Source of the DNA: a bacterium
GTDB lineage: Bacteria > Bacteroidota > Ignavibacteria > UBA10030
Direction: 5' to 3'
DNA length: 64,000 nucleotides
Assembly (NCBI GenBank): GCA_043803945.1
Contig: JAZDJN010000034.1
Span: 3,190-67,189, forward strand
The position numbers and the translations under genes are program-made. The notes beneath the pieces were generated by a model, which was not told the origin of the DNA, did not search any database, and saw nothing but the letters and a program-made list of their open reading frames with translations. Of the stretch, positions 28,266 to 45,303 are shown one piece after another. Each line of letters opens with the position of its first letter. Positions within the stretch are counted from its first letter, which is position 1.

Positions 28266-29950
28266 ACGTTCACCATCGAAGCTGATTTTTGTTGACTCAC
28301 CATGATTTGACAGCCTTTATTTCCCAATTTGCTGTACGAGATGCCCTTATAGGCCGGGACACGTTCAGTAATTTCTCTAAAGACTTCTTCTGCTGCAGTG
28401 TACTTCATTTTACCACCAAGTGCATTTGCGATGGATGAAATGATTCTCCAGGATCCACGTGCATCCCGCTTCAACGGTCTTCCCCATCTGTCATTCTGCG
28501 ATGAAAATTTATCCCAACGGCTCTGTTCATACCCTTCCAACACTCGATCATGCTCAATGGTAGCAACGGCAGGACGTATGCGCTGCACGTGTCCGTTTAA
28601 ATTAGTAAACGTTCCATTCTTTTCGGCATACGTCGCTGAGGAGAGCACAATATTTGCCAGTGCAGTGGTGGCATTCCGTGTGGATGAATGGACGATGAGA
28701 AGCTCCAAATTTGGCAACACTTCCGCGATTTGCGGAATGAGAGCAATGTTATCATCCAGCACATACAGAGCGCGGATGGTGTTATTCTCTATTCCTCTGA
28801 TGATCGAGGAGAGATTAAATCCTTCTTCTACAGGTTTGACTCCCATCTGCTTTGCACCAGTGTTATTCGGAGTCTTATCCGACGTAATGAGGAAATTATC
28901 ACGGCTTTCCAGAACTATATGAGGAATGAGATCGATGAACTTTGTCCCCAGAATATCCTTCATCAATTTCTGGAACAGATAGTTTTCTTCATTCGTCGCA
29001 TACGGAGATCCTATCCCCGCTATTTCGTGTTTCTTAAAAGACCGAAGCTCGGAGACCGCTTGCGAGATGGCTTCGTCCCAACCAACTTCAACAAGTTTAT
29101 CATCCTTACGGAGGAGAGGCCCGCTGAGCCGCTCTTCATTATTGACAAACTTAAAGGTATCCAGCCGCCCTGAATCACACATCCAGTAAGAGTTGACCTG
29201 ATCGTTAACGCGGGGCGTTATCCGCAAGATAGTATTGTTGCGGACCCAGATATTAGTATTACAGCCTCTTGAGCATCCTATGCATACGCTATCGGTGGAG
29301 GACATTTCCCACACCCGCGCTTTGAATCTGAAGTCAGCGCTCGTCAATGCTCCGACTGGGCAAAGCTCAACCACATTCATCGAATACTGATTGTCTAGCT
29401 GCATTCCTGGAAATGTGGCTAATTCCACATGCGTACCGCGCTGAACGAACGTCAACACCGGTTGCCTGGCGATTTCATCCGAGAATCGGATGCATCGCGA
29501 ACACATGATACAACGCTCGACGTCGAGCATCACATTGGGTCCAAGCGGCACACGTTTTGGCTTATGGACCTTATCTTCATCGAATCGACTGGAGCCAGTG
29601 CTGTGTTTATAAGAATAATCCTGCAACTTACATTCCCCTGCCTCATCACAGATCGGGCAATCCAATGGGTGATTAATCAGAAGAAATTCCATTACAGCTT
29701 TGCGTGCATCGAGGACGCGTTCATTTTGGGTCTTTACGACCATCCCCTCCGAAACTTGTGTTGCACAGGCAATGACGAGTTTCGGCATTTTCTCAACCTC
29801 AACGAGGCACATTCTGCAATTGCCCGAGACAGAGAGTTTTGGATGCCAGCAGAAATGCGGAATCTCAATGCCGTGCTGCGCCGCTGCCTGTATGATGGTC
29901 AGCTTTGGATCGACTTCAATCGTTTTTCCATCAATAGTAATTTTTGCCAT
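28262..29950 (-). CDS. nuoG: NADH-quinone oxidoreductase subunit G (short form, 562 aa)
   Basis: N-terminal 2Fe-2S (CWHP...CRMC), HPLDCPICDEAGEC, CIMCSRCIRF, then a molybdopterin-oxidoreductase-like domain. Confidence 0.8.
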   Translation of the reverse strand: MAKITIDGKTIEVDPKLTIIQAAAQHGIEIPHFCWHPKLSVSGNCRMCLVEVEKMPKLVIACATQVSEGMVVKTQNERVLDARKAVMEFLLINHPLDCPICDEAGECKLQDYSYKHSTGSSRFDEDKVHKPKRVPLGPNVMLDVERCIMCSRCIRFSDEIARQPVLTFVQRGTHVELATFPGMQLDNQYSMNVVELCPVGALTSADFRFKARVWEMSSTDSVCIGCSRGCNTNIWVRNNTILRITPRVNDQVNSYWMCDSGRLDTFKFVNNEERLSGPLLRKDDKLVEVGWDEAISQAVSELRSFKKHEIAGIGSPYATNEENYLFQKLMKDILGTKFIDLIPHIVLESRDNFLITSDKTPNNTGAKQMGVKPVEEGFNLSSIIRGIENNTIRALYVLDDNIALIPQIAEVLPNLELLIVHSSTRNATTALANIVLSSATYAEKNGTFTNLNGHVQRIRPAVATIEHDRVLEGYEQSRWDKFSSQNDRWGRPLKRDARGSWRIISSIANALGGKMKYTAAEEVFREITERVPAYKGISYSKLGNKGCQIMVSQQKSASMVNV

Positions 29951-33377: not shown

Positions 33378-33463
33378 CCCGATTGAATATAGAAGTTTTG
33401 GAGTGAAGTATCAATGAAACAGAGGTTGATATCCAAGCATAATTTCCCGATTATTATTCCTAT

Positions 33464-34609
33464 ATGACACTGGTGTTTATCATAGAACTTATATTGTTCT
33501 TGTGCATCGGCTATTATGCCTTTGTCGGGCTGGGGCTTCTGCTCGGGCTCTCCCGTTGTCTTTACAAGAAATCGGATGAAACTCCATTAGTCTCTGTGAT
33601 TGTGGCAGCGCGAAATGAAGAGCACAATATTCCTCGTCTTCTCGGTGCGTTATCTAAGCAGTCCTACTCTCCCTTTGAAATTATTATCGTGAATGACCGT
33701 TCAACGGATAGAACCAGACAAATTGCAGAATCCTATCGAGCCCGTGATCCAAGGATTACCATCCTCTCTGTGGAATCAATGCCAACAGCTCTTCCGCCAA
33801 AAAAGAATGCCCTGCACCTTGGGATCACTCACAGCAAAGGAGAAATCCTCTGCTTCACGGACGCTGACTGTGTTCCCCCTAAGCAGTGGTTGACCGAACT
33901 CGTTGCAGCTTGTTCGCATGACGTTGGACTTGTTGCGGGCTATTCGCCCTACGACACGTCGCTCCTCAACGGTGGGCAAGGAAAAGCGAATCTTTTTTCC
34001 TCCCGTCTTCACCGATTCATTGAATTCGAGGAATACAAAGGAGCACTTTGGTCGGCTGGTTCCATTGGATTACACAAAGGGTGGTTATGTACGGGCCGTT
34101 CACTCGCTTATCGAAAATCTGTTTATGAAGAGATTGGAGGGTTCCGGGATATTGCAAACTCAATAAGCGGAGATGACGATCTGCTGCTTCAGCTCGTACG
34201 GGAAAAGACGTCCTGGACAATGAGGTACGTCACATCTCCAGAGAGTTTTGTGACTACAGCGCCCCCGTCAACGTTTAAAGAATTTATCCAGCAGCGCACT
34301 CGGCATTTCTCAGCAAGCAAATATTTTTCGCTGCCAATGAAACTCTTTTTCTTTACCTACCACAGCGCAAATTTTTTATTGCTCTCCTCACTTGTGTACT
34401 CAATCGTGGCCGGCAGCTCCTTTATGCTTGCTCTCCCGGGATTGCTCAAAATAGTTATCGATGTTATACAATTAAGTCTCGCCTCGAACGTATTCCATGC
34501 AAAATTCTCTGTAGTGGAATCCTTTTTCTATGAGTGCTGGACCATCGCCTATAATACAATCATTGGCCCCTTGGGATTTCTCCAACCGGTTCGTTGGAAG
34601 GAGAATTGA
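33464..34609 (+). CDS. Membrane glycosyltransferase family 2, processive-type (paralog A; QxxRW degenerated to QQRTRH)
   Basis: VSVIVAARNEEHNI, FTDADC (DxD), SGDDDLL, C-terminal TM helices. Confidence 0.8.
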   Translation: MTLVFIIELILFLCIGYYAFVGLGLLLGLSRCLYKKSDETPLVSVIVAARNEEHNIPRLLGALSKQSYSPFEIIIVNDRSTDRTRQIAESYRARDPRITILSVESMPTALPPKKNALHLGITHSKGEILCFTDADCVPPKQWLTELVAACSHDVGLVAGYSPYDTSLLNGGQGKANLFSSRLHRFIEFEEYKGALWSAGSIGLHKGWLCTGRSLAYRKSVYEEIGGFRDIANSISGDDDLLLQLVREKTSWTMRYVTSPESFVTTAPPSTFKEFIQQRTRHFSASKYFSLPMKLFFFTYHSANFLLLSSLVYSIVAGSSFMLALPGLLKIVIDVIQLSLASNVFHAKFSVVESFFYECWTIAYNTIIGPLGFLQPVRWKEN

Positions 34610-35580
34610 AAAAGATGTCCCTGGATCACTCTGCCACAGCCAGCGGCGTTAAACGATATCGTCCATTATTGATAAGGATCTTCATTGGATTTGCAATTCT
34701 TTATGCTCTTGTCTCTCTGATCGATCCGGAAAAGCTACAGACTGCTTTTTCCAACTCAGACCCTCTTCCAATTATTGGGGCGTTCCTCCTGATGGCTCTG
34801 AATATTTTTCTTCAACTGGCTAAGTGGCATTACCTTCTCAAACTTGCTCAAGCATCTTTGGCATGCAGTGAGACGTTCCGTTCGTTTCTGTTTGGCATCA
34901 CAGTCGGCCTTATTACGCCGGGCCAGATCGGGGAATTCGGAGGCAGGGCATATGGGCAAACCTCACTTTCTTCGGCCACAATTATCGGATTAACGCTCAT
35001 CGACAAACTTCAAATTACCCTGATCATAACACTCGGGGGGATGGTGAGTGTCTCATTCCTCTATCTCCAAAATTCTGCTGTCAGGATCGCCCTTATCAGT
35101 GTGAGCTGCTTAGCTGTGATCTTGGTTTTCTTTAATTTACATTTCCTTCGACGCCTGGCGGTGATTCTACCAAGCCGTTTTCGCGATCACGAATGGGTTC
35201 AGGATGGTATTCAATCAATCGGACTGCTGAACGGAAAAAGCTTATTGTATTCCTTCGGTCTGACATCCGGGTATTATCTAGTACTATTTCTTCAATTCTA
35301 TCTTCTTCTGAATGCTTTTGAATCTGTTTCAGTGTGGAATTCCTATCTCGGCTTTGCAGCCGTCATGTTTTTTAAGGGGTTTCTCCCCATTTCATTTGGA
35401 GATTTAGGAGTTCGTGAAGGTACGTCTGTTTATGTGTTTTCTTTGTTAGGAGTACATGCTGCCGCCTCCTTCAATGCATCGGTACTCCTATTTGTATTTA
35501 ATCTCTTGATTCCAGCTTGTGCAGGATTAGTGATCTTTCCATGGCTAGAGAGAAATCGTAAAATTCCCCCGCTTAAATAA
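34594..35580 (+). CDS. Flippase-like membrane protein (lysylphosphatidylglycerol-synthase TM-region / UPF0104-like)
   Basis: 8-TM protein with a GQIGEFGGRAYG-type loop characteristic of the MprF-TM-like family; overlaps the upstream GT2 stop. Confidence 0.6.
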   Translation: MEGELKKMSLDHSATASGVKRYRPLLIRIFIGFAILYALVSLIDPEKLQTAFSNSDPLPIIGAFLLMALNIFLQLAKWHYLLKLAQASLACSETFRSFLFGITVGLITPGQIGEFGGRAYGQTSLSSATIIGLTLIDKLQITLIITLGGMVSVSFLYLQNSAVRIALISVSCLAVILVFFNLHFLRRLAVILPSRFRDHEWVQDGIQSIGLLNGKSLLYSFGLTSGYYLVLFLQFYLLLNAFESVSVWNSYLGFAAVMFFKGFLPISFGDLGVREGTSVYVFSLLGVHAAASFNASVLLFVFNLLIPACAGLVIFPWLERNRKIPPLK

Positions 35581-35595
35581 TTTATTGAATTCTCC

Positions 35596-36729
35596 TTGAT
35601 TATCGCTCTTATCATACTCCTCATCTGTAGCTTTCTTTTTTACAGTTACTTCCTTTTTACAATACGGAGAGGACTCCTTCGTGCTCCCTGTTCCGGTGTT
35701 CCAACACCTCCAATGAATTCTATTGCTCGCGTCTCGGTCATTATTGCTGCACGTAATGAAGAGCTCACCATCGGCCAATGCTTGAGTACAATATTAAAAC
35801 AAACCTATCCCCTTGAGTTGGTCGAAATTATTGTTGTGGATGATCATTCCACAGATGCTACACTCTCTGTGGCCGGAACTGTCTTGCAAGCATTTCCTCA
35901 GAAACAGATCCTTTCGCTTTCCGGCGATCAAGATTCCCATGGTAAGCCTGCAGCAATTGCCTATGGTCTTCAACATAGCAGTTCCGATATTCTTCTCTTC
36001 ACTGATGCGGATTGTCTCGCTTCGCCTTGTTGGATCGAATCTACCGTTGCACACTTTGAGCATGAAGTCGCCTTTGTTGCTGGTGCTGTGCTTGAAGAGG
36101 CCAGTTCAACTTTTCTTTCAGCTCTCTCCTCATTAGAATTTCTCAGCCTCATCACGACAGCAGCCGGGCTCATTGGTGCCGGGAAACCAATCATCTGCAA
36201 TGGAGCCAACATCGCCTACCGAAAAAGTGCCTTTCAGAAAGCGGGTGGATTTGGAGAGCAATTCGGATCATGCGATGATGAGACAATAATGCAGCGGATG
36301 ATACTCAGAAGTGTCGGGACTGTACGTTTCAATTTCGATCCACGATCACGCGTCTTCACAAAATCACCAGCCACAATCAGACAATTCTGGTTACAGCGTA
36401 CCCGATGGGCATCGAAACAGGGGCATTATGAGGATCGGTGCATACTCTGGAAATTACTAGCGCTCTATTCGTTCTTTGTGGTGATGTTGATCTCGGGAAT
36501 TCTTGTCGTGTACGATTCTTCACTTATTCCGATACTCTCCTCTATCGCACTCTTAAAGGCACTCATCGATTACAGAGTGTTGGCTGCCGGTGCAAGAATC
36601 TTCCAGATACGGCTTTCGCTCTTCGACTTTTTCATTGCAGAGATTTTTCACGTTCCGTATATTGCGATTGCAGCTCTCGTTGGTCAAGTTGCTTCAATCC
36701 GCTGGAAGAACAGAACGGTTACAGCATGA
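35596..36729 (+). CDS. Membrane glycosyltransferase family 2, processive-type (paralog B; QRTRW)
   Basis: VSVIIAARNEE, FTDADC, WLQRTRWASK (QxxRW), C-terminal TM helices. Confidence 0.8.
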   Translation: MIIALIILLICSFLFYSYFLFTIRRGLLRAPCSGVPTPPMNSIARVSVIIAARNEELTIGQCLSTILKQTYPLELVEIIVVDDHSTDATLSVAGTVLQAFPQKQILSLSGDQDSHGKPAAIAYGLQHSSSDILLFTDADCLASPCWIESTVAHFEHEVAFVAGAVLEEASSTFLSALSSLEFLSLITTAAGLIGAGKPIICNGANIAYRKSAFQKAGGFGEQFGSCDDETIMQRMILRSVGTVRFNFDPRSRVFTKSPATIRQFWLQRTRWASKQGHYEDRCILWKLLALYSFFVVMLISGILVVYDSSLIPILSSIALLKALIDYRVLAAGARIFQIRLSLFDFFIAEIFHVPYIAIAALVGQVASIRWKNRTVTA

Positions 36730-37349
36730 GAGTACACTGGACGCATTTCGCAAAGGTTCTTTTTCCATCGCTTGTGTGTGAGGGACCGGCGCCTTTTCTT
36801 TATTTAACATTCGATGATGGACCCCATCCAAAGGCAACTCCTCCTCTCCTGGCTGTTCTGCGCAAAGCGATGGTGAAGGCAACTTTCTTTCTCCTTGGGG
36901 AGCGTGTTGCACTCTATCCAGACATTGTTCGTCAGATTGTTGAGGAAGGTCATGTGCTTGGGAATCATGGATACACTCACCGCTCGCTCATGTTCAGGAA
37001 GTCAGTTGAGCAGGAGGAAGAGATAGCAAGGACAGATGATGCGATCAAGGCAATTCTCGGAGACTCACCAAAACTCTTTCGCCCTCCGTTTGGATTCTTC
37101 GATATGCGGACCGTCAGTCTCGTCGAAAAGCAACAAAAACGATTTGTCCTTTGGAGCAATGACCCTAAGGATTACCTTGAGCAGAAGCGAGCGACATTAT
37201 TCGAACGTACTAGACGATCGCTCACAACTCGTGCTATTATCCTTCTCCATGACAATGAAGCAACCCTTGAGTACTTGCCACACACTGTGCAGCGGCTAAT
37301 CCACTATTCCCAGGATCACGATTTTCAATTTTCCTCTTTGTCACTATGA
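36726..37349 (+). CDS. Polysaccharide deacetylase, NodB-homology domain (207 aa, NodB-size)
   Basis: LTFDDGPHP motif 1, HGYTHRSL, LHDN. Start taken at the internal ATG (ATGA overlap with the upstream stop) rather than the longer out-of-context 36438 ORF. Confidence 0.8.
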   Translation: MRVHWTHFAKVLFPSLVCEGPAPFLYLTFDDGPHPKATPPLLAVLRKAMVKATFFLLGERVALYPDIVRQIVEEGHVLGNHGYTHRSLMFRKSVEQEEEIARTDDAIKAILGDSPKLFRPPFGFFDMRTVSLVEKQQKRFVLWSNDPKDYLEQKRATLFERTRRSLTTRAIILLHDNEATLEYLPHTVQRLIHYSQDHDFQFSSLSL

Positions 37350-38440
37350 GCATAGAACTTCTTCTCTGTGTTATTTTGATCTTCTATCTTGCACAAGTCT
37401 GCTTTTTCCTCTATGGAATTACCCATCTTCGTGATGAGTGTTCTTCAACTGCCCAACTTTCTGTTTCTGTAATCATCGCCGCCCGAAACGAAGAGAAGAA
37501 TATTGCACCTTGTCTTGAATCGGTACTGCAACAGACCTATTCATCACATTCGTACGAAGTAATCGTTGCCGATGATCATTCCTCAGATTCCACTAGGAGC
37601 ATTTGTGAAGCGATTGCAAAACTCCATCCTAGCCTCACCGTATTTCTCTGCGTTGATGATGAAACATTACGTGGAAAATCCAATGCTCTGCATCAGGCCA
37701 TTGACAGGGCAAAGAACGAGATTATTCTTGTTACGGATGCAGATTGTACCGTTCCCTCAACATGGATTGAACATACAGTTAAGCGCTATGGGCCAAACAC
37801 AGGGATCGTTGGAGGCGTGACACTTCAGAAATCGACCGATTGGTTCGGAGGGATGCAATCTCTCGATTGGGCATATCTGTTAGGGCTCGCGGCGTCGGCA
37901 GTTGCCCTGAATAATCCACTCAGTACGATCGGCAACAATCTCTCTTTCCGGAAATCGGCGTATGAAGAAGTAGGAGGTTATAAGAAGATTCCTTTCAGCG
38001 TGACAGAAGATTTTATGTTATTCCAGTCAATCTTGCAATTGAAAAAATATTCATGCCTCTACCCGGTCGATTCTCACCTCACCGTAATAACAAATCCGTG
38101 CTCGACGTTTGCCGAACTTGTGAGGCAGAAACAGCGTTGGGGCCGGGGTGGCGTCGATATGAAACTCAGCGGGTTAGCGATCATGGTTATTGGATTCCTC
38201 ACGCATGGAATCATCATCGCCGGATTTATTGCCGGAGATATATTATTTGCCGCTACAGCACTTTTAATAAAATGTATTGCTGATTATAGTTTTCTCCATC
38301 TTACTCTGAAGCGTCTCAAACGGATTGATTTGCTAACGTATTTCTACTGGTTTGAGGCCTACTATATCGTCTATGTGATTCTTCTCCCCTTCATCGTCTT
38401 CCTCGGAGGAAAGGTGAAATGGAAGGGGCGCTCCTATTGA
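37346..38440 (+). CDS. Membrane glycosyltransferase family 2, processive-type (paralog C; QKQRW)
   Basis: VSVIIAARNEEKNI, VTDADC, VRQKQRWGRGG (QxxRW); ATGA overlap with the deacetylase stop. Confidence 0.8.
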   Translation: MSIELLLCVILIFYLAQVCFFLYGITHLRDECSSTAQLSVSVIIAARNEEKNIAPCLESVLQQTYSSHSYEVIVADDHSSDSTRSICEAIAKLHPSLTVFLCVDDETLRGKSNALHQAIDRAKNEIILVTDADCTVPSTWIEHTVKRYGPNTGIVGGVTLQKSTDWFGGMQSLDWAYLLGLAASAVALNNPLSTIGNNLSFRKSAYEEVGGYKKIPFSVTEDFMLFQSILQLKKYSCLYPVDSHLTVITNPCSTFAELVRQKQRWGRGGVDMKLSGLAIMVIGFLTHGIIIAGFIAGDILFAATALLIKCIADYSFLHLTLKRLKRIDLLTYFYWFEAYYIVYVILLPFIVFLGGKVKWKGRSY

Positions 38441-40050
38441 ACTTTTCGCTGGAGTTTTTCACCGCCCTTCCGATCATTCTTTACGCAGAGACACATTATC
38501 GGTTTCCATTCCTTTTTAGCTACCTTTTTAAAAAGGAGCCTGAGGTCATCTTTGATGCTCCGCATCGCCTTGAGCCCAATCAACCGATACCCATTCTCCT
38601 GCTCGTTAAAGATGCAGACAGATTCTCCTGCAACCTAAAGAACATCACATTCCGCTTAATGCAAGATTCAACACTCATCGTCGAACAGAGAGCGGCAGAG
38701 ATTCCCATCATCCCCTCTCAGCCAATATGGTGGATGCTCCTTTCTTTGGATTCACATAGCTGTTCAGGGTGGGTTTCGCTCCAGATCTCATTTACTCTCC
38801 AAACACCTTCCGGTGAGTATACTTATAAGAGTGATAACAATCGGACATCGAGTCATCGCCCCCTGAAAATATTTCTTTCTCGTGAACTTCTCCCACGATT
38901 GCCGAACTTGTATCTTGGCGATGCGCATACCCACTCGAATTATACAAACGATCAAGTAGAATTTGGCTCACCGCTGGAGGCTTCGCGGCTGCTCTGTAAA
39001 GCCATGGGATTATCCTTTTTTGCTGTCACCGATCATTCCTACGACCTGGATGATCGACCGGATAATTATCTTGTGAACGATCCAGATCAGCCGAAGTGGA
39101 AGACTTTTCTTGAAGAGGCAGAAGCCTGTAACGCCGAAGAACGGGAGTTCGTCATTCTTACCGGCGAAGAAATTACCTGTCGAAACAATAATTCTCGTAA
39201 CGTACACCTTCTTCTCTATGGTGATCATCAATTTTTCAAAGGATCTGGAGACGGTGCAGAACGAAGCCTACACACCTGGAGCGAACACAGTATTCCCGAA
39301 ATCCTTCAACAGAAATCATCTGCTTCAGTAGTGTATGCATCCCATCCTTTTGAGCCAATCCCTTTTCTTCAAAAACTCCTTTTAGGACGGGGTGAGTGGG
39401 CTGTCGCGGATCTTACCTCTGAAAGTATCAGCGGTTTGCAAATCCTTAATGGAAGCAGGGATAAAGGATTCTTCGATGGATATCATATCTGGATCCAGCA
39501 ACTTCTCCAAGGGAAAAAACTATTTCTTCTCGCAGGCAATGATGCTCATGGAAATTTTAACCGCTTCAGTCAACTTGCAATCCCATTCATTTCAATTAGA
39601 GAGCGCGATACACAACTGTTCGGTAAAATGCGGACGGGAGTATTTATCGATGGAGAGCTTTCTGCAAATACCTTATTAGATGCGTTACGAAATGGTACAT
39701 CGGTGATCAGTGATGGTCCAGTCGCTGAACTCAATGCCCGGCAACGCCCCAGCTATGCAAAGAGTGAATCAGAATCAAAAACGGTAGCGCTTCGGCTTCA
39801 TGCGGTTTCGAGCGCAGAGTTTGGAAAAATTAGGAGGTTGAATATCTTTCTTGGCATACTCGGAAGTGAATGTGAACGATCCATTGATATTGACGGATTT
39901 CAAGAAGGATACTCTGTGCAATTGGAAAGAGAACTGCCCGTTAACTCTGCCTGTTATTTCAGGGCTGAGGTCGTCACATCTTCGATGGGAACCTACGACA
40001 GCCGAGAACACTTCTGTTACACCAATCCGGTCTGGATTACTCCTGCTTGA
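38419..40050 (+). CDS. PHP-domain metal-dependent phosphoesterase-like protein (543 aa) with an N-terminal domain of unknown function
   Basis: GDAHTHSNYT, VTDHSY, ASHPFE, GNDAHGNF PHP-type His/Asp motifs. Confidence 0.55.
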   Translation: MEGALLLNFSLEFFTALPIILYAETHYRFPFLFSYLFKKEPEVIFDAPHRLEPNQPIPILLLVKDADRFSCNLKNITFRLMQDSTLIVEQRAAEIPIIPSQPIWWMLLSLDSHSCSGWVSLQISFTLQTPSGEYTYKSDNNRTSSHRPLKIFLSRELLPRLPNLYLGDAHTHSNYTNDQVEFGSPLEASRLLCKAMGLSFFAVTDHSYDLDDRPDNYLVNDPDQPKWKTFLEEAEACNAEEREFVILTGEEITCRNNNSRNVHLLLYGDHQFFKGSGDGAERSLHTWSEHSIPEILQQKSSASVVYASHPFEPIPFLQKLLLGRGEWAVADLTSESISGLQILNGSRDKGFFDGYHIWIQQLLQGKKLFLLAGNDAHGNFNRFSQLAIPFISIRERDTQLFGKMRTGVFIDGELSANTLLDALRNGTSVISDGPVAELNARQRPSYAKSESESKTVALRLHAVSSAEFGKIRRLNIFLGILGSECERSIDIDGFQEGYSVQLERELPVNSACYFRAEVVTSSMGTYDSREHFCYTNPVWITPA

Positions 40051-40071: not shown

Positions 40072-40095
40072 AACGCCCTCGGATCAGAGGGCGTT
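40072..40095. terminator. Perfect 9-bp hairpin (aacgccctc-ggatca-gagggcgtt) between convergent genes
   Basis: Read directly from the sequence; lies between the + stop at 40050 and the - stop at 40117. Confidence 0.45.
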
Positions 40096-40116: not shown

Positions 40117-41097
40117 TTAGTGTCGATGTCGGGCACTCGGGATTGCAAGTCGTTTTAATTTATAGCGGAGCGTTTGCTCCGTCATACCAAGGAATCCAGC
40201 TGCCCGTGATTGGTTAAAGGAAAATTTATTCAGCGCCCGCTCAATAATTCCTTTTTCAATCACATCTAAAGAAGCATCGAGAATGAATTCCTGCCCATTG
40301 ATGACATTGTTGATCATCTTGACGACCTCGGTTTTTTCATCGGCAAGTTCGGGCGGCAATGTAAATTTTCCACCGGAAGAGAAGAGAACGGATTTATCGA
40401 TGACGGCTTTTAATTCTCTAATATTCTCACGCCACGGGTGCCGAATAAGCACATCGATGGCATTAATATCGATTGCCACATCTTTGATATTCAGGTCTTT
40501 GCAAATTTCCGTAATAAAATGCTTCGCAAGCATGGGAATATCTTCTGGCCGCTCACGTATCGGAGGGATATAGATCTTTTCACATTGTTCCAAACGCTTG
40601 TAAAAATCATCATACAATTTATTCTGTGTGAACAATTCTTTTGGATATTTTTTTGTTGTGAGAATTACCTGGACTTCTGCTGAACGTCCTTCCTCTGATC
40701 CCAACCGTTTTGATTTTCTCTCAGCAAGAAAGTTCAGGATCTTAATCTGATTCCTGAATCCAGCTTCTTCGACTTCTTCGATGAACACGGTGCCGCCATT
40801 CGCCAATTCGAATATTCCTCGTTTGGTCGTGGGCGGCATACCTGCGACACCTTTCTCAAAACCGAAAAGAATTGCTTCGAGCTCCCGATCGTCGATGACT
40901 GATGCATTGACACTCAGGAAGGGATGTTTGTCACTGGGTTCACCGTAATGTTCAGCATGGATGCTTTTAGCAACCATGCCTTTGCCAACGCCCGATTCGC
41001 CGATAATCAAGACATCTTTACTTGATCTCGCGACCTTCACGATCTGTTTCTTAATATTGTCTACGGGCTTGCTTTTGCCAACGATCGCTGATACCAT
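40117..41097 (-). CDS. Stand-alone AAA+ / Fis-HTH transcriptional regulator of the sigma54-activator (NtrC) class with a degenerate GAFTGA loop
   Basis: Walker A GESGVGKG, arginine-finger region, C-terminal Fis-type HTH (SRAAGFLGMTEQTLRYKLKRL). The usual EKGAFTGA position reads FEKGVAGMPPTTKRG; no receiver or other N-terminal sensor domain. Confidence 0.75.
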   Translation of the reverse strand: MVSAIVGKSKPVDNIKKQIVKVARSSKDVLIIGESGVGKGMVAKSIHAEHYGEPSDKHPFLSVNASVIDDRELEAILFGFEKGVAGMPPTTKRGIFELANGGTVFIEEVEEAGFRNQIKILNFLAERKSKRLGSEEGRSAEVQVILTTKKYPKELFTQNKLYDDFYKRLEQCEKIYIPPIRERPEDIPMLAKHFITEICKDLNIKDVAIDINAIDVLIRHPWRENIRELKAVIDKSVLFSSGGKFTLPPELADEKTEVVKMINNVINGQEFILDASLDVIEKGIIERALNKFSFNQSRAAGFLGMTEQTLRYKLKRLAIPSARHRH

Positions 41098-41187: not shown

Positions 41188-42333
41188 TTAGGTTTTGTCT
41201 CTTGTCTCGCGCGATGCAAGAAGCCTTCCATGAAACGTTTTCGTGTTAAGAAAATGATGTACAATAAGATTATCAAAAGCGTCGCGCCAGCGACTAATAT
41301 GTTCAGAATCAGAAACCAATTCGTGCTCATAAAACTCGCCTTTGATACTTGTAATAAATCGGAGTCTTAAAATGAAGAACAGCAGTAATCCCAGGACATT
41401 GAGGAGAGTCAGTACCAGACCGATCCTGAAAATGTCAAGATACGTTGCGTACTCAACCGATTTAATGTATGCGTAATAATGAAGAATTTCAAGGGAGCAA
41501 TACGGAACAAAGAGAAGGAGAATTTTTTCGATATACGCGCCCTGCGGTGGATCTTTTTTGTACTGATAACCAAAAAAGAGGGAGATGAATACCAGACAGA
41601 GCACATTTATATAGATACCTGTTCTATGCAATGGCGCACACAGCAAAACCAGGGAATTGCTCCCTTCAAGGTAAGGAATAAATTCAAGGACCCGTTTCAC
41701 TTTCTCGTCATCAAATAATTCCCCCACCTCTTTTCCGTTTTTCCATGCATGCAGGTTCGTCTGTTCAGCTATCAACACTGCATCGTTGGCAGTAGGAGTT
41801 TTGAGCTGCAGTTGTTCTACTGCTCCCCGTACCTTTCTGAAATCAATTATCTCTTCAGACCGATAGGCAGCGAGAGGATCAACTAAAAACGGATGGAAAT
41901 AATAGACGAAGACTCCGCCGGCAATGAGGAATGTGAAAAAATATTTAGCAGGCGTTCTCCAGTCGTAAAAGAGCGAATCGATAACAAGGTAGACAATTGC
42001 TATAGAAAGGGAGAGACAGAAAAACCCGATGGTGAAATATTGATAGCTGTAGAAACTGGCAAAATGGTTGGTTTGAAATATCGCTTTGCCAATGAGTGAA
42101 GAAAACGGACTGAGAGAACTAACGCCGAACATGATCGCAAAATTAATGAAAATTGGTTTATTGCGTTCGTTCGGTTCTTTAATGCCGATGACAACAGATA
42201 TGATTGCTAGTAATCCAATTCCCATTGCTAAGATCATCTGCCAGGTGTCAATATCCTGGTGCGGAAAAATCACTAACGAACCACTTGTTGCACCGATCAA
42301 TAACAACCATGAAAAGAGAATTTTTTTCGTCAT
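41188..42333 (-). CDS. Hypothetical polytopic membrane protein (about 9 TM)
   Basis: Hydrophobic-helix pattern only; directly upstream of the AAA+ regulator on the same strand. Confidence 0.4.
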   Translation of the reverse strand: MTKKILFSWLLLIGATSGSLVIFPHQDIDTWQMILAMGIGLLAIISVVIGIKEPNERNKPIFINFAIMFGVSSLSPFSSLIGKAIFQTNHFASFYSYQYFTIGFFCLSLSIAIVYLVIDSLFYDWRTPAKYFFTFLIAGGVFVYYFHPFLVDPLAAYRSEEIIDFRKVRGAVEQLQLKTPTANDAVLIAEQTNLHAWKNGKEVGELFDDEKVKRVLEFIPYLEGSNSLVLLCAPLHRTGIYINVLCLVFISLFFGYQYKKDPPQGAYIEKILLLFVPYCSLEILHYYAYIKSVEYATYLDIFRIGLVLTLLNVLGLLLFFILRLRFITSIKGEFYEHELVSDSEHISRWRDAFDNLIVHHFLNTKTFHGRLLASRETRDKT

Positions 42334-42707
42334 CGTTTTTCTCTCACTCGTTATCTGCGACGAATATATAATGATTTAAGATTCAGGTCAAGAATAAAAT
42401 CGAATATCTATAACAATTGCGTAATACCCCTAGCCTTCTACCACAAATGCTTCAAAACAATGAAAAAAAGGCGATAAACCAGAACATTCTATGTACGATA
42501 TTTATTAGCCTATAGCAGGATGTGACGGCCAACACATAGAAATTCGGAGAGGTCGGGCAGTCTGTTTGTTTCTTTGCCTGTCGTGTTGGTGCAATCAGGA
42601 GACTATGCCAGCCAACACATCAGTTCATTTCCTGCATCCTGTTTAGTACAATAAGTCGATCGCATTAATACTATTCGCAATTCTCTTGAAAATATTCGCC
42701 AGAATTC

Positions 42708-42735
42708 TTGACAATAGGATAGAATTTGCTAAATT
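42708..42735 (+). promoter_or_regulatory. Sigma70-like promoter candidate TTGACA-N16-TAAATT upstream of the repeat-protein gene
   Basis: Exact TTGACA hexamer and an A/T-rich -10 read directly, about 75 nt before the ATG at 42809 (which has an AAAGGAG RBS). Confidence 0.3.
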
Positions 42736-42808
42736 ACGCCCAGCGGCCTTAAAAAGAAAACTAATTCATTCTTCCTATTTACTTAACAACCTCTCAAAGG
42801 AGATTTCT

Positions 42809-43105
42809 ATGCGTACATCAGCATCAGTAAAACGGATCGTGTCAATTTTTATTGCAGTAGGATTGACGCTCATCATAAATTCGGCTATAACCATTGCCGC
42901 AAAAGTTGGCAGTGAACACAGTCCATATCAAACTCAGGCAGGCGTTACCACGGGACCGGGAACAACAATTCCAACAGATATTCCAAAACCGTACGGCGTC
43001 ACAACAGGACCTGGCACTCCTATCCCAACAGATATCCCGAAACCTTCAAGCGTTATCACAGGACCTGGTACACCTATTCCGACAGATATTCCAAAACCTC
43101 TCTAA
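42809..43105 (+). CDS. Small secreted protein (98 aa) with three tandem 18-aa repeats GVTTGPGT(T/P)IPTDIPKP(Y/S/L)
   Basis: RBS AAAGGAG 7 nt before the ATG; N-terminal signal-like helix (IVSIFIAVGLTLIINSAITIAA); Pro/Thr-rich repeats. Confidence 0.55.
   Translation: MRTSASVKRIVSIFIAVGLTLIINSAITIAAKVGSEHSPYQTQAGVTTGPGTTIPTDIPKPYGVTTGPGTPIPTDIPKPSSVITGPGTPIPTDIPKPL
42941..43102 (+). repeat. 3 x 54-nt coding tandem repeat with many synonymous differences between copies
   Basis: Copies ggcgttaccacgggaccgggaacaacaattccaacagatattccaaaaccgtac / ggcgtcacaacaggacctggcactcctatcccaacagatatcccgaaaccttca / agcgttatcacaggacctggtacacctattccgacagatattccaaaacctctc. Confidence 0.75.
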
Positions 43106-44367: not shown

Positions 44368-45303
44368 TTGTTTTTTCAGGTATTACAAAGGAAGCAATCA
44401 TTGAATCGGCCATTCACCTTCGATAGAATTCTTCAAGCACATTCACATTACGGACAGATCAGTCTCATCATCTATCTCATGCTCATGAGTTCAGGTTGTG
44501 AGAGAAAACATGAGGAGCTCGTAGATAGTACTGTAACTCTGCCTGTACTTCAACAAGCTCAACTCTTTCCCACTGAAATCAACACCGATACCATTGTCAT
44601 TGGATCAGTTCGAAATCCTGATGATATCCTGACCCTTTCACCAATACTTACAGCATTCCTCTCCTCTCCTGTAGATTCAGGAACCGTAGTGCAGTACTCT
44701 ATTAGGAAAACCATTGGCGAGCCACCTTTCTCCACAGGACAGCTCAACGACAATGGTATCAAACCTGATTTGAGGCAAAGAGATGGAATTTTTACTGGCT
44801 TGGCTACTCTCAACATCAAGCGTTCTGACGTTGGGTCCTATCACTTCGAACTTGCGGCATTCACCGCAGAAGGATTGAGAAGCACAACATTCTTTCTGCC
44901 ATTGAAGGTGTACCGATCCAACAAAGCTCCAGTTCTCTCAAACCTAAGCGCACCAGATACTGTTAAACTGGCGAATCAAACACAATTGCTATTGCTTACG
45001 GTCAAGGTGACAGATTCTGATGGATTATCTGACATCCAACGTGTCATTTTCAATTCCTACCGGCCAGATGGATCTTCGTCGAGCGGAAATCCATTCAAAA
45101 TGTATGACGATGGCAGTGAAAGTATTCTCTTCCCTCCTGAAGGAAAAAGTGGCGATCAGGTGAAGAGTGACGGTGTGTTTAGCCTGATGATATCGATGCC
45201 GGCAACAACATCCACTGGCACTTATCGCTTCGAATTTCAGGCTTTCGATCGATCAAATGAACCTAGTAACATTCTCATCCAAAGGATCACAGTTCGCCAA
45301 TGA
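44368..45303 (+). CDS. Hypothetical secreted/lipoprotein with internally repeated beta-rich domains
   Basis: Hydrophobic leader ...LIIYLMLMSSGC; repeated DDG/DG-IFT motifs; stop overlaps the start of the next gene (ATGA). Confidence 0.4.
   Translation: MFFQVLQRKQSLNRPFTFDRILQAHSHYGQISLIIYLMLMSSGCERKHEELVDSTVTLPVLQQAQLFPTEINTDTIVIGSVRNPDDILTLSPILTAFLSSPVDSGTVVQYSIRKTIGEPPFSTGQLNDNGIKPDLRQRDGIFTGLATLNIKRSDVGSYHFELAAFTAEGLRSTTFFLPLKVYRSNKAPVLSNLSAPDTVKLANQTQLLLLTVKVTDSDGLSDIQRVIFNSYRPDGSSSSGNPFKMYDDGSESILFPPEGKSGDQVKSDGVFSLMISMPATTSTGTYRFEFQAFDRSNEPSNILIQRITVRQ

What the first reader, a model, noticed from the sequence alone, without database searches (positions are those of the whole stretch)
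33464..40050. Coupled six-gene locus: three paralogous processive GT2s, an MprF-like flippase domain, a NodB-size deacetylase and a PHP hydrolase
Six + strand genes are packed with start/stop overlaps (ATGA at 36726 and 37346; 16-22 nt overlaps at 34594 and 38419). Three of them are clear paralogs, each about 370 aa. They share VSVI(I/V)AARNEE...(F/V)TDADC and a QxxRW-type motif (QRTRW, QKQRW, degenerate QQRTRH) with C-terminal TM helices. That is the processive NodC / PgaC / chitin-synthase-like architecture, not a simple LPS GT2. The second GT2 is ATGA-coupled to a 207-aa NodB-homology deacetylase (TFDDGP). A flippase-like UPF0104/MprF-TM protein sits between GT2 A and B, and a 543-aa PHP-domain metallo-phosphoesterase closes the operon. 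By analogy to nodBC and pgaBC, the locus could make and export a partly de-N-acetylated hexosamine oligo/polymer or glycolipid. The three-fold GT2 paralogy, the PHP enzyme and the MprF-like partner are not the canonical form of either system. The NodBC/PgaBC assignment is inference, not demonstrated.
Basis: partly seen in the sequence, partly recalled or inferred. Interest (0 to 1): 0.7.

Follow-up and report, generated by a model that had tools for sequence, protein, structure and literature searches.

The report
Ignavibacterial membrane amino-glycolipid-type gene cluster
A tightly packed six-gene operon, conserved in dozens of Ignavibacteria-type genomes, most likely builds a short amino-sugar head group on a membrane lipid and flips it outward rather than making a PNAG- or Nod-factor-like polymer; its product and the role of its PHP hydrolase are unknown.

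Summary
All six + strand genes, their overlaps, the three-fold GT2 paralogy and the quoted motifs are real. The window is an uncultured Ignavibacteria-type MAG. The block sits in a fixed frame (udk ... M50 peptidase) in at least 59 related species genomes. It is modular: PHP alone, GT2C-PHP, FLP-GT2C-PHP, the six-gene form (the commonest), and forms with an extra GT28-like or radical-SAM gene.

The three GT2s are separate orthogroups with fixed active-site signatures. They have the membrane-embedded cellulose-synthase-like fold, which is shared by polymer synthases and by single-sugar lipid glycosyltransferases such as ceramide glucosyltransferase. None reaches the PgaC, NodC or HpnI thresholds.

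The CE4 deacetylase has all catalytic motifs and no signal peptide. The PF03706 protein is an MprF-type flippase domain without the synthase domain. The last gene has a true PHP fold and a short interfacial N-terminal anchor.

The best reading is a GT2-based relative of the HexSDF / GpgSDF synthase-deacetylase-flippase operons: stepwise assembly of a partly de-N-acetylated glycolipid on the cytoplasmic face, then flipping. This is inferred, not shown. The PHP role is open; supply of diacylglycerol is one idea. I rate it a new variant of a known kind, of moderate interest.

The parts
33378..33463 (.). 86-nt divergent intergenic region between udk (- strand) and GT2A; the likely promoter region of the operon
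   Evidence: It is the only sizeable gap upstream of the block. Weak sigma-70-like matches occur there, but Bacteroidota-type promoters are not covered by that scan. The divergent udk arrangement is conserved in most related loci.
33464..34609 (+). GT2A: membrane GT2, orthogroup A (GDDD motif, QxxRH instead of QxxRW). NCBI's start is TTG 33494.
   Evidence: Pfam GT2 and GT21 hits. An N-terminal membrane helix and C-terminal hydrophobic segments. GDDD and Q-x-x-R-H are fixed: H in 53 of 54 orthologs. MFH0989781.
34615..35580 (+). FLP: PF03706 (LPG_synthase_TM / UPF0104) polytopic membrane protein, an MprF-type flippase domain without the aminoacyl-PG synthase domain. The ORF extends upstream to TTG 34594.
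   Evidence: PF03706 at 87.1 bits against a cutoff of 33.4, covering the whole profile. TIGR00374 at 39.4 bits, below its 43.2 cutoff. About seven hydrophobic segments. 321 aa, as annotated in MFH0989782. Present in 54 of 59 bounded related loci.
35596..36729 (+). GT2B: membrane GT2, orthogroup B (QRxRW), ATGA-coupled to the deacetylase; the candidate HexNAc transferase
   Evidence: Pfam GT2 hits. QRxRW is invariant in 64 orthologs. It co-occurs with DAC in 49 of 59 loci and both are absent in 7. NCBI's start, ATG 35713, would delete the conserved first membrane helix.
36726..37349 (+). DAC: 207-aa CE4 / NodB-homology de-N-acetylase, predicted cytoplasmic
   Evidence: Polysacc_deac_1 at 123 bits. 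It aligns to SpPgdA 2c1g (E 5.5e-31) with TFDDGP, HGYTH, RPPFG, DPKDY and LLHD. D-D, H...H, R, D and H are invariant in 68 orthologs. No hydrophobic segment, signal peptide or lipobox in the window protein or its orthologs.
37346..38440 (+). GT2C: membrane GT2, orthogroup C (TED, QKxRW), overlapping the PHP start; in the reduced loci that keep only one GT2 gene, this is the one next to PHP
   Evidence: AF2 model at pLDDT 92.4: membrane helix 3-26, GT-A domain, interface helix 255-271, and three C-terminal helices. Foldseek and PDB profile results. TED and QKxRW are invariant in 59 orthologs. GT2C-PHP pairs occur in reduced loci L032 and L058. JGI labels some orthologs 1,2-diacylglycerol 3-beta-glucosyltransferase.
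38419..40050 (+). PHP: 543-aa PHP-fold metal-dependent hydrolase. It has a short interfacial N-terminal anchor, an N-terminal beta-sandwich, a PHP barrel and a C-terminal beta-sandwich.
40072..40095 (.). G+C-rich hairpin between the convergent PHP gene and the sigma-54 activator gene; the likely terminator that ends the operon
   Evidence: 9-bp stem with 6 G-C pairs, found by the terminator scan. The sequence is seen directly.

Best explanation
The locus is a chromosomal, vertically inherited operon of Ignavibacteria-type bacteria that assembles a short, partly de-N-acetylated sugar head group on a membrane lipid and moves it to the outer leaflet of the cytoplasmic membrane.

Proposed steps; all of them are inferred:
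1. GT2C, the GT2 kept next to PHP in reduced loci, puts the first hexose on a lipid acceptor. Diacylglycerol is favoured; ceramide or another lipid alcohol is possible.
2. GT2A and GT2B each add a further sugar, with their catalytic domains on the cytoplasmic face. GT2B adds a HexNAc.
3. The cytoplasmic CE4 enzyme, coupled to GT2B, removes the N-acetyl group and leaves a cationic amino sugar.
4. The PF03706 protein flips the finished lipid.
5. The membrane-docked PHP hydrolase carries out an associated phosphoester cleavage. My preferred guess is release of diacylglycerol from phosphatidic acid or a phospholipid, as PlcP does for Agt/Pgt.

In logic this is a GT2-based, multi-sugar relative of HexSDF (C. 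difficile) and GpgSDF (P. aeruginosa).
For: Shown:
- All gene families and catalytic motifs are intact and fixed across 54-68 orthologs.
- The three GT2s are distinct, ancient orthogroups with different active-site signatures: GDDD/QxxRH, QRxRW and TED/QKxRW. This fits three different transfer steps better than one polymerase.
- The number of glycosyltransferase genes between udk and PHP is graded among species: 0, 1, 2, 3 or 4. GT2C can be replaced or supplemented by a Glyco_tran_28_C protein, a domain whose best-known members (MurG, MGDG synthase, HexS) use lipid acceptors.
- GT2B and DAC behave as one module: together in 49 of 59 loci, both absent in 7.
- DAC has no signal peptide in any ortholog. 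The GT-A domains lie between membrane helices, as in MgdA. The PHP N-terminus is a short aromatic interfacial helix, not a signal peptide. All predicted chemistry is therefore cytoplasmic, and the PF03706 protein is the only candidate translocator.
- The only full-length match of the GT2C profile among solved structures is ceramide glucosyltransferase, a single-sugar lipid GT (query 6-321, E 2.4e-13). HpnI also aligns end to end. JGI labels some orthologs DAG glucosyltransferase.
- No PgaA, PgaD, PilZ or NodA partner is present in the locus, and the gene packing leaves no room for one.

Precedents:
- HexSDF and GpgSDF combine a lipid GT, a deacetylase and a PF03706 flippase-like protein, and they make aminoglycolipids.
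- PlcP phospholipase C often sits in an operon with a DAG glycosyltransferase, and sometimes sits alone.
- E. coli ybhP-clsB-ybhN links a phosphoesterase, a lipid head-group enzyme and a PF03706 protein.
Against: - There is no chemical evidence of any kind. Nothing on Ignavibacteria polar lipids was found in the searchable literature.
- Polymer synthases share the same fold. Hyaluronan synthase gives the best TM-scores.
- Mycoplasma galactan synthases with only three membrane helices and QxxRW still make polysaccharide.
- PgaC is the best-scoring NCBIfam model for GT2C (96 bits), and the alignment to E. coli PgaC is collinear.
- Flippase activity is unproven even for HexF and GpgF, and neither is needed for product formation.
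- The PHP role is a guess. PHP occurs alone at the same site in L021, L025 and L033. Relatives at 32-35 % identity have no GT neighbours.
- Topologies come from hydropathy and AF2 models, not from a dedicated predictor or an experiment.
Confidence: 0.5

Rival explanations
1. Synthase-dependent exopolysaccharide system (Pga/Ica-like). One or more of the GT2s polymerises and translocates a hexosamine polymer such as PNAG, which the CE4 enzyme partly de-N-acetylates.
For: - The GT2s have the cellulose-synthase-like membrane fold with D, DxD, (T)ED and QxxRW.
- PgaC/IcaA is among the best partial NCBIfam hits (64-96 bits).
- Identity to E. coli PgaC is 26-28 % over the catalytic domain, in a collinear alignment.
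- Small GT2 synthases with three membrane helices do make polymers in Mycoplasma.
Against: - Scores are far below the PgaC equivalog cutoff of 422.
- The locus has no PgaD/IcaD, no PgaA porin and no PilZ or c-di-GMP module, and there is no room for them.
- The deacetylase has no signal peptide, whereas PgaB is a lipoprotein. It also shows no significant similarity to PgaB.
- Three different GT2 orthogroups, replacement of GT2C by a GT28-like enzyme, and a variable gene number are not expected for a homopolymer synthase.
- A lipid-flippase-type protein has no role in synthase-dependent export.
Confidence: 0.1
2. NodBC-like cytoplasmic synthesis of short chito-oligosaccharides. These are de-N-acetylated at one residue and then further modified or exported as signalling molecules.
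For: - The CE4 enzyme is cytoplasmic and of NodB size. NodB is among its best NCBIfam hits (114 bits).
- NodC-type enzymes are small membrane GT2s with QxxRW.
- The ATGA coupling of GT2B to DAC mirrors nodBC adjacency.
Against: - NodC scores 27-46 against a cutoff of 550, and NodB 114 against 240.
- There is no NodA acyltransferase and no NodIJ transporter in the locus.
- The block is a syntenic housekeeping-context locus across a whole class, not a symbiosis island.
- The model does not explain three GT2 orthogroups, the PF03706 protein or PHP.
Confidence: 0.08
3. Polyprenyl-phosphate amino-sugar donor pathway of the Arn / Lgm / NaxD type. A GT2 loads HexNAc on undecaprenyl phosphate, the CE4 enzyme deacylates it, the flippase moves it to the periplasm, and a GT-C enzyme encoded elsewhere transfers the amino sugar to lipid A, LPS core or proteins.
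For: - The enzymatic logic is the same: GT2, then a CE4-type deacylase, then a flippase. This is from my own knowledge of ArnC/ArnD/ArnEF, and of Francisella FlmF2/NaxD and Bordetella LgmA/LgmC.
- LPS genes (Glyco_transf_9, Wzy_C) lie 7-10 kb downstream in relatives.
- The topology argument is the same as for the best explanation.
Against: - ArnC-type enzymes lack QxxRW and have a different C-terminal layout. The ArnC model scores only 24-32 bits against a cutoff of 529.
- No GT-C transferase is in the block or its immediate flanks.
- Three GT2s are more than a monosaccharide donor needs.
- In my recollection, known Arn-type flippases are small EamA/SMR-like proteins, not PF03706 proteins.
Confidence: 0.14
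4. Glycosylation of a non-acyl isoprenoid lipid (a hopanoid or carotenoid), as with HpnI/HpnK/HpnJ or CruG/CruC. The radical-SAM gene of some variants would act like HpnJ.
For: - HpnI aligns end to end with all three GT2s (44-66 bits), and CruG and HpnB give partial hits.
- Some related loci insert a radical-SAM gene directly before DAC or after the GT2 (L001, L049, L073, L075, L072).
- From my own knowledge, the sequence GT2, deacetylase, radical SAM is the bacteriohopanetetrol cyclitol ether logic.
Against: - All scores are far below the equivalog cutoffs (HpnI 310, CruG 600).
- The radical-SAM protein is a 345-366 aa SPASM-like enzyme with no HpnJ hit.
- The deacetylase is CE4. As I recall, HpnK belongs to the YdjC family instead.
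- No shc, hpn or crt genes were seen in the 20-kb neighbourhoods.
- The radical-SAM gene is absent from the window and from most loci (2 of 59 bounded).
Confidence: 0.07

Closest known systems
HexSDF of Clostridioides difficile (aminohexosyl-hexosyl-diradylglycerol synthesis; PMC10128005)
   Same: - An operon of a lipid glycosyltransferase, a CE4-type polysaccharide deacetylase and an MprF-like flippase domain without the lysinylation domain.
- A HexNAc is added to a glycolipid and then de-N-acetylated.
- Variant loci related to the window even carry a Glyco_tran_28_C enzyme, the domain type annotated for HexS.
   Different: - The glycosyltransferases here are three polytopic GT2 paralogs, not one GT28/MGDG-synthase-like enzyme.
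- A PHP hydrolase is co-translated at the end of the operon.
- The host is Gram-negative.
- There is no adjacent two-component regulator.
- The product is unknown.
GpgSDF of Pseudomonas aeruginosa (glucosaminyl-phosphatidylglycerol; PMC12713373)
   Same: - Synthase, then deacetylase, then a UPF0104/PF03706 flippase-like protein.
- Synthase and deacetylase are both predicted cytoplasmic.
- The organism is Gram-negative.
   Different: - GpgS is a soluble GT4 enzyme and GpgD a COG3233 deacetylase. Here the enzymes are membrane GT2s and a CE4.
- GpgSDF adds one sugar; here there are three or more glycosyltransferases.
- GpgSDF has no PHP partner.
Lipid-acceptor members of the cellulose-synthase-like GT2/GT21 fold: ceramide glucosyltransferase, cyanobacterial MgdA (Sll1377), PcManGT, rhizobial Pgt, HpnI
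   Same: - A size of about 350-480 aa, with a cytoplasmic GT-A domain between N- and C-terminal membrane helices and D/DxD/D/(Q/R)xxRW motifs.
- Full-length profile match to ceramide glucosyltransferase.
- Best Foldseek hit is PcManGT.
- MgdA has the same layout and needs its membrane helices for activity.
   Different: - No equivalog-level match to any of them.
- GT2A has QxxRH.
- Three paralogs act together.
- Acceptor and donor sugars are unknown.
PgaABCD / IcaADBC (PNAG) and NodABC (Nod factor backbone)
   Same: - A GT2 with QxxRW next to a NodB-homology deacetylase.
- 26-28 % identity to E. coli PgaC across the catalytic domain.
   Different: - No PgaD/IcaD, PgaA or NodA.
- The deacetylase is cytoplasmic and unrelated to PgaB beyond the CE4 motifs.
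- Scores are far below the family cutoffs.
PlcP-Agt/Pgt lipid-remodelling operons (PMC4796936) and E. coli ybhP-clsB-ybhN
   Same: - A metal-dependent phosphoesterase is genetically coupled to a membrane-lipid head-group enzyme.
- PlcP supplies diacylglycerol to the adjacent glycosyltransferase, and in some genomes it stands alone, as PHP does here.
- The ybh operon also contains a PF03706 protein.
   Different: - The phosphoesterases are not homologous. As I recall, PlcP is calcineurin-like; YbhP belongs to the EEP family; the enzyme here has the PHP fold.
- FLP and YbhN share no pairwise similarity.
- No activity is known for the PHP protein.

Membership tests
PgaABCD / IcaADBC PNAG system | Synthase reaches the PgaC/IcaA equivalog model (TIGR03937, cutoff 422.3 bits) | tested here: not met
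   GT2A scores 64.4, GT2B 87.7 and GT2C 96.4 bits. Identity to E. coli PgaC is 26-28 %, over the catalytic domain only.
PgaABCD / IcaADBC PNAG system | Small membrane partner (PgaD/IcaD), secreted or lipoprotein deacetylase (PgaB/IcaB), and outer-membrane porin (PgaA) | tested here: not met
   - There is no extra ORF space in the block.
- DAC has no signal peptide or lipobox in 45 orthologs, whereas PgaB starts with a lipoprotein signal.
- DAC against PgaB gives E 0.45.
- No porin was seen within about 10 kb in relatives. The rest of the genomes was not examined.
NodABC chito-oligosaccharide pathway | NodC (TIGR04242, cutoff 550) and NodB (TIGR04243, cutoff 240) equivalogs plus the NodA acyltransferase | tested here: not met
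   NodC scores are 27.1, 45.8 and 36.0 bits; NodB scores 114.3 bits. No NodA-like gene is in the locus.
Synthase-deacetylase-flippase aminoglycolipid operons (HexSDF / GpgSDF type) | Co-operonic sugar de-N-acetylase with intact catalytic residues | tested here: met
   All five CE4 motifs are present and invariant. DAC is ATGA-coupled on both sides.
Synthase-deacetylase-flippase aminoglycolipid operons (HexSDF / GpgSDF type) | Stand-alone PF03706/UPF0104 flippase-like membrane protein in the same operon | tested here: met
   PF03706 at 87.1 bits against a cutoff of 33.4. The protein is 321 aa with no other domain. It is conserved in 54 of 59 bounded loci.
Synthase-deacetylase-flippase aminoglycolipid operons (HexSDF / GpgSDF type) | Glycosyltransferase that uses a membrane lipid as acceptor and HexNAc as donor; the product is an amino-glycolipid | not testable with these tools
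   Only indirect support is available: full-length similarity to ceramide glucosyltransferase and HpnI, JGI labels, and the GT28-type substitute. The GT family also differs: GT2 here, against GT28-like or GT4 in the known systems.
MprF (aminoacyl-phosphatidylglycerol synthase/flippase) | N-terminal PF03706 flippase domain fused to a C-terminal aminoacyl-PG synthase domain | tested here: not met
   Only PF03706 is found. The protein ends at residue 321-328.
Hopanoid HpnI / HpnK / HpnJ side-chain pathway | HpnI equivalog (TIGR03472, cutoff 310) together with HpnK and HpnJ | tested here: not met
   HpnI scores are 43.9, 43.5 and 65.6 bits. The deacetylase is CE4. The radical-SAM gene of variant loci has no HpnJ hit, and the window has no radical-SAM gene at all.
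CE4 / NodB-homology deacetylases | Motifs TFDD, H(S/T)xxH, RxPY/F, DxxD(W/Y/F) and LxH, which carry the metal ligands and the catalytic base and acid | tested here: met
   TFDDGP, HGYTH, RPPFG, DPKDY and LLHD align to SpPgdA 2c1g. D, D, H, H, R, D and H are invariant in 68 orthologs.
Cellulose-synthase-like membrane GT2 fold | GT-A domain with D, DxD, a catalytic (T)ED-type Asp and QxxRW on an interface helix, flanked by membrane helices | tested here: met
   - The AF2 model of GT2C has pLDDT 92.4.
- Foldseek matches PcManGT (E 2e-16), CvHAS (TMq 0.71-0.74) and BcsA.
- The motifs are fixed in orthologs.
- GT2A departs with QxxRH.
- GT2A and GT2B were not modelled.
PHP superfamily metal-dependent phosphoesterases | Distorted (beta/alpha)7 barrel with an HxH motif and further His/Asp/Glu metal ligands | tested here: met
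- H170, H172, H206, E250, H263, H309, D375 and H377 are invariant.
- NF038032 scores 84.8 bits against a cutoff of 80.
- No Pfam family, PF02811 included, hit at E<=0.01, and the profile search of PDB sequences found nothing significant.
Arn / Lgm / NaxD polyprenyl-phosphate amino-sugar pathway | ArnC-type GT2 (PRK10714, cutoff 529) and a GT-C transferase (ArnT/LgmB type) | tested here: not met
   ArnC model scores are 23.6, 31.8 and 29.9 bits. No GT-C-like gene lies in the block or its flanks. The rest of the genome was not examined.

The most novel reading that the evidence does not exclude
Ignavibacteria-type bacteria carry, as a core envelope trait, an undescribed class of cationic oligoglycosyl membrane lipid. 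It would be made by a GT2-only assembly line whose sugar number varies by species through gain and loss of GT modules. The associated PHP protein would be the first PHP-fold lipid phosphoesterase, a phospholipase C or phosphatidate phosphatase that feeds diacylglycerol to the first glycosyltransferase. That would make it a non-homologous analogue of PlcP.
Probability: 0.25. Interest if true: 0.65.

Novelty: new variant of a known kind. Interest (0 to 1): 0.45.

Why it matters
- Amino-sugar glycolipids change membrane charge and resistance to cationic antimicrobials. Their genetics became known only in 2023-2025, from two systems (HexSDF and GpgSDF).
- This locus would extend that logic to membrane-embedded GT2 enzymes, to multi-sugar head groups, and to a whole, largely uncultured bacterial class. 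There it sits in a housekeeping context and so is probably a constitutive envelope component.
- It is a concrete caution that D,D,D,QxxRW and 'PgaC-like' labels do not imply a polymer.
- It offers an orphan PHP-hydrolase family, seen mostly in Ignavibacteria-type MAGs (777 cluster representatives in 1.8 billion), a testable substrate class.
- The graded series of natural locus variants is a ready-made experiment for assigning each glycosyltransferase to one sugar.

Tried and rejected
- A profile search of the PHP family against PDB sequences found nothing significant.
- FLP has no sequence match in the PDB and no pairwise similarity to E. coli YbhN. Its assignment therefore rests on the Pfam profile.
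- Literature searches for Ignavibacteria or Melioribacter polar lipids, and for any description of this cluster, found nothing usable.
- Contexts of PHP relatives at 32-35 % identity were short contigs without glycosyltransferases, so they gave no clue to PHP function.
- An N-terminal signal peptide or lipobox in DAC was considered, because of the 'SLVC' in the window protein. It was rejected because the Cys and the hydrophobic run are not conserved.
- A classical membrane anchor for PHP was rejected. In many orthologs the hydrophobic stretch before the invariant ETHYRF is only about 8-14 residues.
- HpnJ-like identity of the variant radical-SAM gene was rejected.
- The sigma-54 activator and membrane-protein pair downstream was considered as part of the system. 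It was left out because it is convergent and present in only a subset of loci.

Full report
OBSERVATION.

The junctions read directly from the sequence are as follows:
- GT2B/DAC and DAC/GT2C share ATGA at 36726 and 37346.
- GT2C and PHP overlap by 22 nt (38419-38440), with GGAGGAAAGG upstream of the PHP start.
- The flippase-like gene more probably starts at ATG 34615, preceded by GGAGAA and 5 nt after the GT2A stop, than at TTG 34594. ATG 34615 is also NCBI's call (MFH0989782).

NCBI starts GT2A at TTG 33494 and GT2B at ATG 35713. The GT2B start would delete an N-terminal membrane helix that all three paralogs and the 376-aa orthologs keep. I therefore keep TTG 35596. A G+C-rich hairpin at 40072-40095 closes the block against a convergent gene.

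Pfam and NCBIfam confirm three GT2s, one PF03706 (LPG_synthase_TM) protein and one CE4 deacetylase. The last protein has no Pfam hit at E<=0.01 but passes NCBIfam NF038032, CehA/McbA metallohydrolase (84.8 bits against a cutoff of 80). The GT2s are 29-32 % identical end to end (E 1e-40 to 1e-44) and carry the quoted motifs.

WHERE IT COMES FROM AND HOW CONSERVED IT IS.

The window is an NCBI MAG labelled only 'bacterium'. Its proteins find their nearest relatives (about 50-62 % identity) in Ignavibacteriales, Ignavibacteriota and Bacteroidota MAGs.

The best 80 loci were fetched. My ORF/BLASTP synteny analysis shows a fixed frame: aminotransferase(-), M16 peptidase(-), udk(-) | block | [sigma-54 activator(-), membrane protein(-)] | M50 peptidase.

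Among 59 loci bounded on the upstream side:
- 24 have exactly GT2A-FLP-GT2B-DAC-GT2C-PHP.
- 8 add a Glyco_tran_28_C gene before PHP.
- 7 have that gene in place of GT2C.
- A few insert a radical-SAM gene before DAC.
- Reduced forms occur at the same site: PHP alone (L021, L025, L033), GT2C-PHP (L032, L058), FLP-GT2C-PHP (L008; also L031, which is cut upstream and so not among the 59) and GT2A-FLP-GT2C-PHP (L022).

Between 89 and 100 % of gene junctions are 20 nt or shorter. GT2B and DAC are present together in 49 loci and absent together in 7. G+C content is the same as in the flanks. This is therefore a native, vertically inherited, modular operon, not an island.

In a second lineage with different flanks (L072, labelled Zhuqueibacterota), PHP is again preceded by a membrane GT2 and a radical-SAM gene, separated from them only by a small inserted two-gene cassette that looks like a toxin-antitoxin pair (a guess from the sequences, not tested). 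Relatives at 32-35 % identity lie on short contigs with no GT neighbours.

THE PARTS.

(a) The glycosyltransferases.
- The three GT2s are separate orthogroups, each with its own fixed active-site signature over 54-64 species: GT2A has GDDD and QxxRH (H in 53 of 54), GT2B has QRxRW, and GT2C has TED and QKxRW. The 'degenerate' QQRTRH is thus a conserved feature, not decay.
- The GT2C model (pLDDT 92.4) has one N-terminal membrane helix, a GT-A domain, an interface helix carrying QKQRW and three C-terminal helices.
- Foldseek places it with the 'minimal cellulose-synthase-like' mannosyltransferase PcManGT, hyaluronan synthase (TMq 0.71-0.74) and BcsA.
- A profile of GT2C orthologs against PDB sequences matches most entries only over the nucleotide-binding half. 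It matches ceramide glucosyltransferase over residues 6-321 (E 2.4e-13).
- HpnI also aligns end to end. PgaC gives the highest partial scores. All are far below the equivalog cutoffs.
- JGI labels orthologs either 'cellulose synthase/PNAG synthase-like' or '1,2-diacylglycerol 3-beta-glucosyltransferase'.
- From the literature, cyanobacterial MgdA is a polytopic enzyme with the same layout that adds one glucose to diacylglycerol.
- On the other side, Mycoplasma galactan synthases with only three membrane helices and QxxRW make polymers. Fold and motifs alone therefore cannot decide between lipid glycosylation and polymerisation.

(b) The deacetylase.
- It aligns to the pneumococcal PgdA structure with all five CE4 motifs, and these are invariant in 68 orthologs.
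- Its first 25 residues or so run straight into the first strand of the domain. No ortholog has a signal peptide or a conserved Cys. It is predicted to be cytoplasmic.
- It shows no significant similarity to PgaB, which starts with a lipoprotein signal.

(c) The flippase-like protein.
- It is a PF03706 domain only. It corresponds to the flippase half of MprF without the synthase half, as HexF and GpgF do.

(d) The PHP protein.
- The model (pLDDT 84.7) has a helix at residues 11-26, a beta-sandwich, a barrel at about 164-430 and a C-terminal beta-sandwich.
- The N-terminus is a short hydrophobic run followed by the invariant LYAETHYRF(R)YFFS-LKK, with no positive charge ahead of it. This suggests an interfacial anchor holding a cytoplasmic domain at the membrane. 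That is an inference.
- The family is small: 777 cluster representatives at E<=1e-3 among 1.84 billion.

MECHANISM.

Every predicted catalytic domain is cytoplasmic, and the only candidate translocator is a lipid-flippase-type protein. There are three (and in relatives zero to four) non-equivalent glycosyltransferases. One of them can be swapped for a GT28-type enzyme, a domain whose best-known members act on lipid acceptors. The HexNAc-type module GT2B+DAC comes and goes as a unit.

This pattern fits stepwise construction of a short, partly de-N-acetylated glycan on a membrane lipid followed by flipping. HexSDF (C. difficile) and GpgSDF (P. aeruginosa) establish that scheme.

I propose that GT2C acts first on the lipid, because it is the GT kept in the smallest loci. 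GT2A and GT2B would extend the glycan, DAC would unmask the amine, and FLP would flip the product. None of these steps is shown. The acceptor may be diacylglycerol, ceramide or something else, and the sugars are unknown.

The PHP step is the weakest part. The gene is translationally coupled to GT2C or GT28 wherever these are present, yet it also stands alone in some genomes. This is the behaviour described for PlcP, the phospholipase C that supplies diacylglycerol to the adjacent Agt/Pgt glycosyltransferases. E. coli likewise couples a phosphoesterase, a lipid head-group enzyme and a PF03706 protein in ybhP-clsB-ybhN. I therefore suggest, at low confidence, that PHP supplies or trims a lipid phosphoester. 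A UDP/UMP hydrolase that relieves product inhibition is an alternative.

RIVALS.
- A Pga/Ica-like polymer system is disfavoured. PgaD, PgaA and c-di-GMP modules are missing, the deacetylase is cytoplasmic, the GT set is variable and non-equivalent, and family scores are low. It is not excluded by fold.
- A NodBC-like oligosaccharide pathway lacks NodA and explains neither FLP nor PHP.
- An Arn/Lgm/NaxD-like polyprenyl-phosphate amino-sugar pathway shares the logic. However, it needs an ArnC-type GT2 and a GT-C transferase, and neither is seen.
- A hopanoid or carotenoid glycoside pathway is suggested by the HpnI-length alignments and by the occasional radical-SAM gene. It fails every equivalog test.

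COMPARISON AND NOVELTY.

In the way it works, the locus is closest to HexSDF and GpgSDF. In membership, it shares with them the deacetylase-plus-PF03706 pair but not the glycosyltransferase family. It adds two further GT2s and a PHP hydrolase. No paper in the searchable library describes it, and NCBI annotates the genes only generically.

I rate it a new variant of a known kind. It is of moderate interest because it is clade-wide, modular and experimentally tractable by heterologous lipidomics.

LIMITS.
- There are no chemical data.
- Topology comes from hydropathy and AF2 only.
- GT2A and GT2B were not modelled.
- Only about 20 kb around each related locus was examined, so partners encoded elsewhere (exporters, GT-C enzymes, GT cassettes in 'PHP-only' genomes) cannot be excluded.
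- The taxonomic labels of the MAGs are heterogeneous.

Noticed in passing
window 40117-41097 (-) and 41188-42333 (-): A sigma-54-dependent activator with only the AAA+ and HTH parts and no receiver or sensor domain (PrdR/AtoC-like partial hits). It is followed by a 381-aa polytopic membrane protein with no NCBIfam match (only that library was searched). The pair lies convergent to the PHP gene. It is present in only a subset of related loci and is duplicated in L021.
   Followed up: partly
window 42942-43099 (within ORF 42686-43105, +): A 54-nt tandem repeat of 2.9 copies (76 % matches) that encodes repeated GVTTGPGTPIPTDIPKP units in a small protein with an N-terminal hydrophobic segment.
   Followed up: no
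L001 4940-5977; also L049, L073, L075; L072 7759-8859: Some related loci insert a 345-366 aa radical-SAM (SPASM-like, weak PTO1314-family hit) gene next to the deacetylase or the GT2. This suggests a further, unknown modification of the sugar or lipid in those species.
   Followed up: partly
L021, L025, L033 (PHP at about 10001): In three species genomes the PHP gene sits directly after udk with no glycosyltransferase, flippase or deacetylase gene. It is unknown whether the cassette lies elsewhere in those genomes.
   Followed up: no
L083 (CALRIY020000005.1) and several 'uncultured Chitinophagaceae' loci (e.g. L046, L055, L061): A contig deposited as a Synechococcus sp. MAG, and several labelled Chitinophagaceae, carry the full Ignavibacteria-type synteny (M16, udk, GT2A-FLP-GT2B-DAC-...-PHP, M50). 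They are probably mis-binned or mislabelled records.
   Followed up: no
window 35596-35712: The public annotation of this MAG (MFH0989783, 338 aa) starts GT2B at ATG 35713. That omits the N-terminal membrane helix present in the paralogs and in the 376-aa orthologs, so it is a likely start-site miscall.
   Followed up: yes
L072 9187-9727: Two small ORFs (111 aa and 74 aa, the latter with CxxC...CxxC) are inserted between the radical-SAM gene and PHP. They look like a toxin-antitoxin pair, but no family search was run on them.
   Followed up: no
window 27225-29950 (-) and 44368-46865 (+): Upstream lie NADH dehydrogenase subunit genes (NuoH- and NuoG-like by sequence). Downstream lie two secreted-looking proteins; the counterpart of the second has faint BNR/Sortilin hits in relatives. 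The context is ordinary housekeeping and envelope genes.
   Followed up: no
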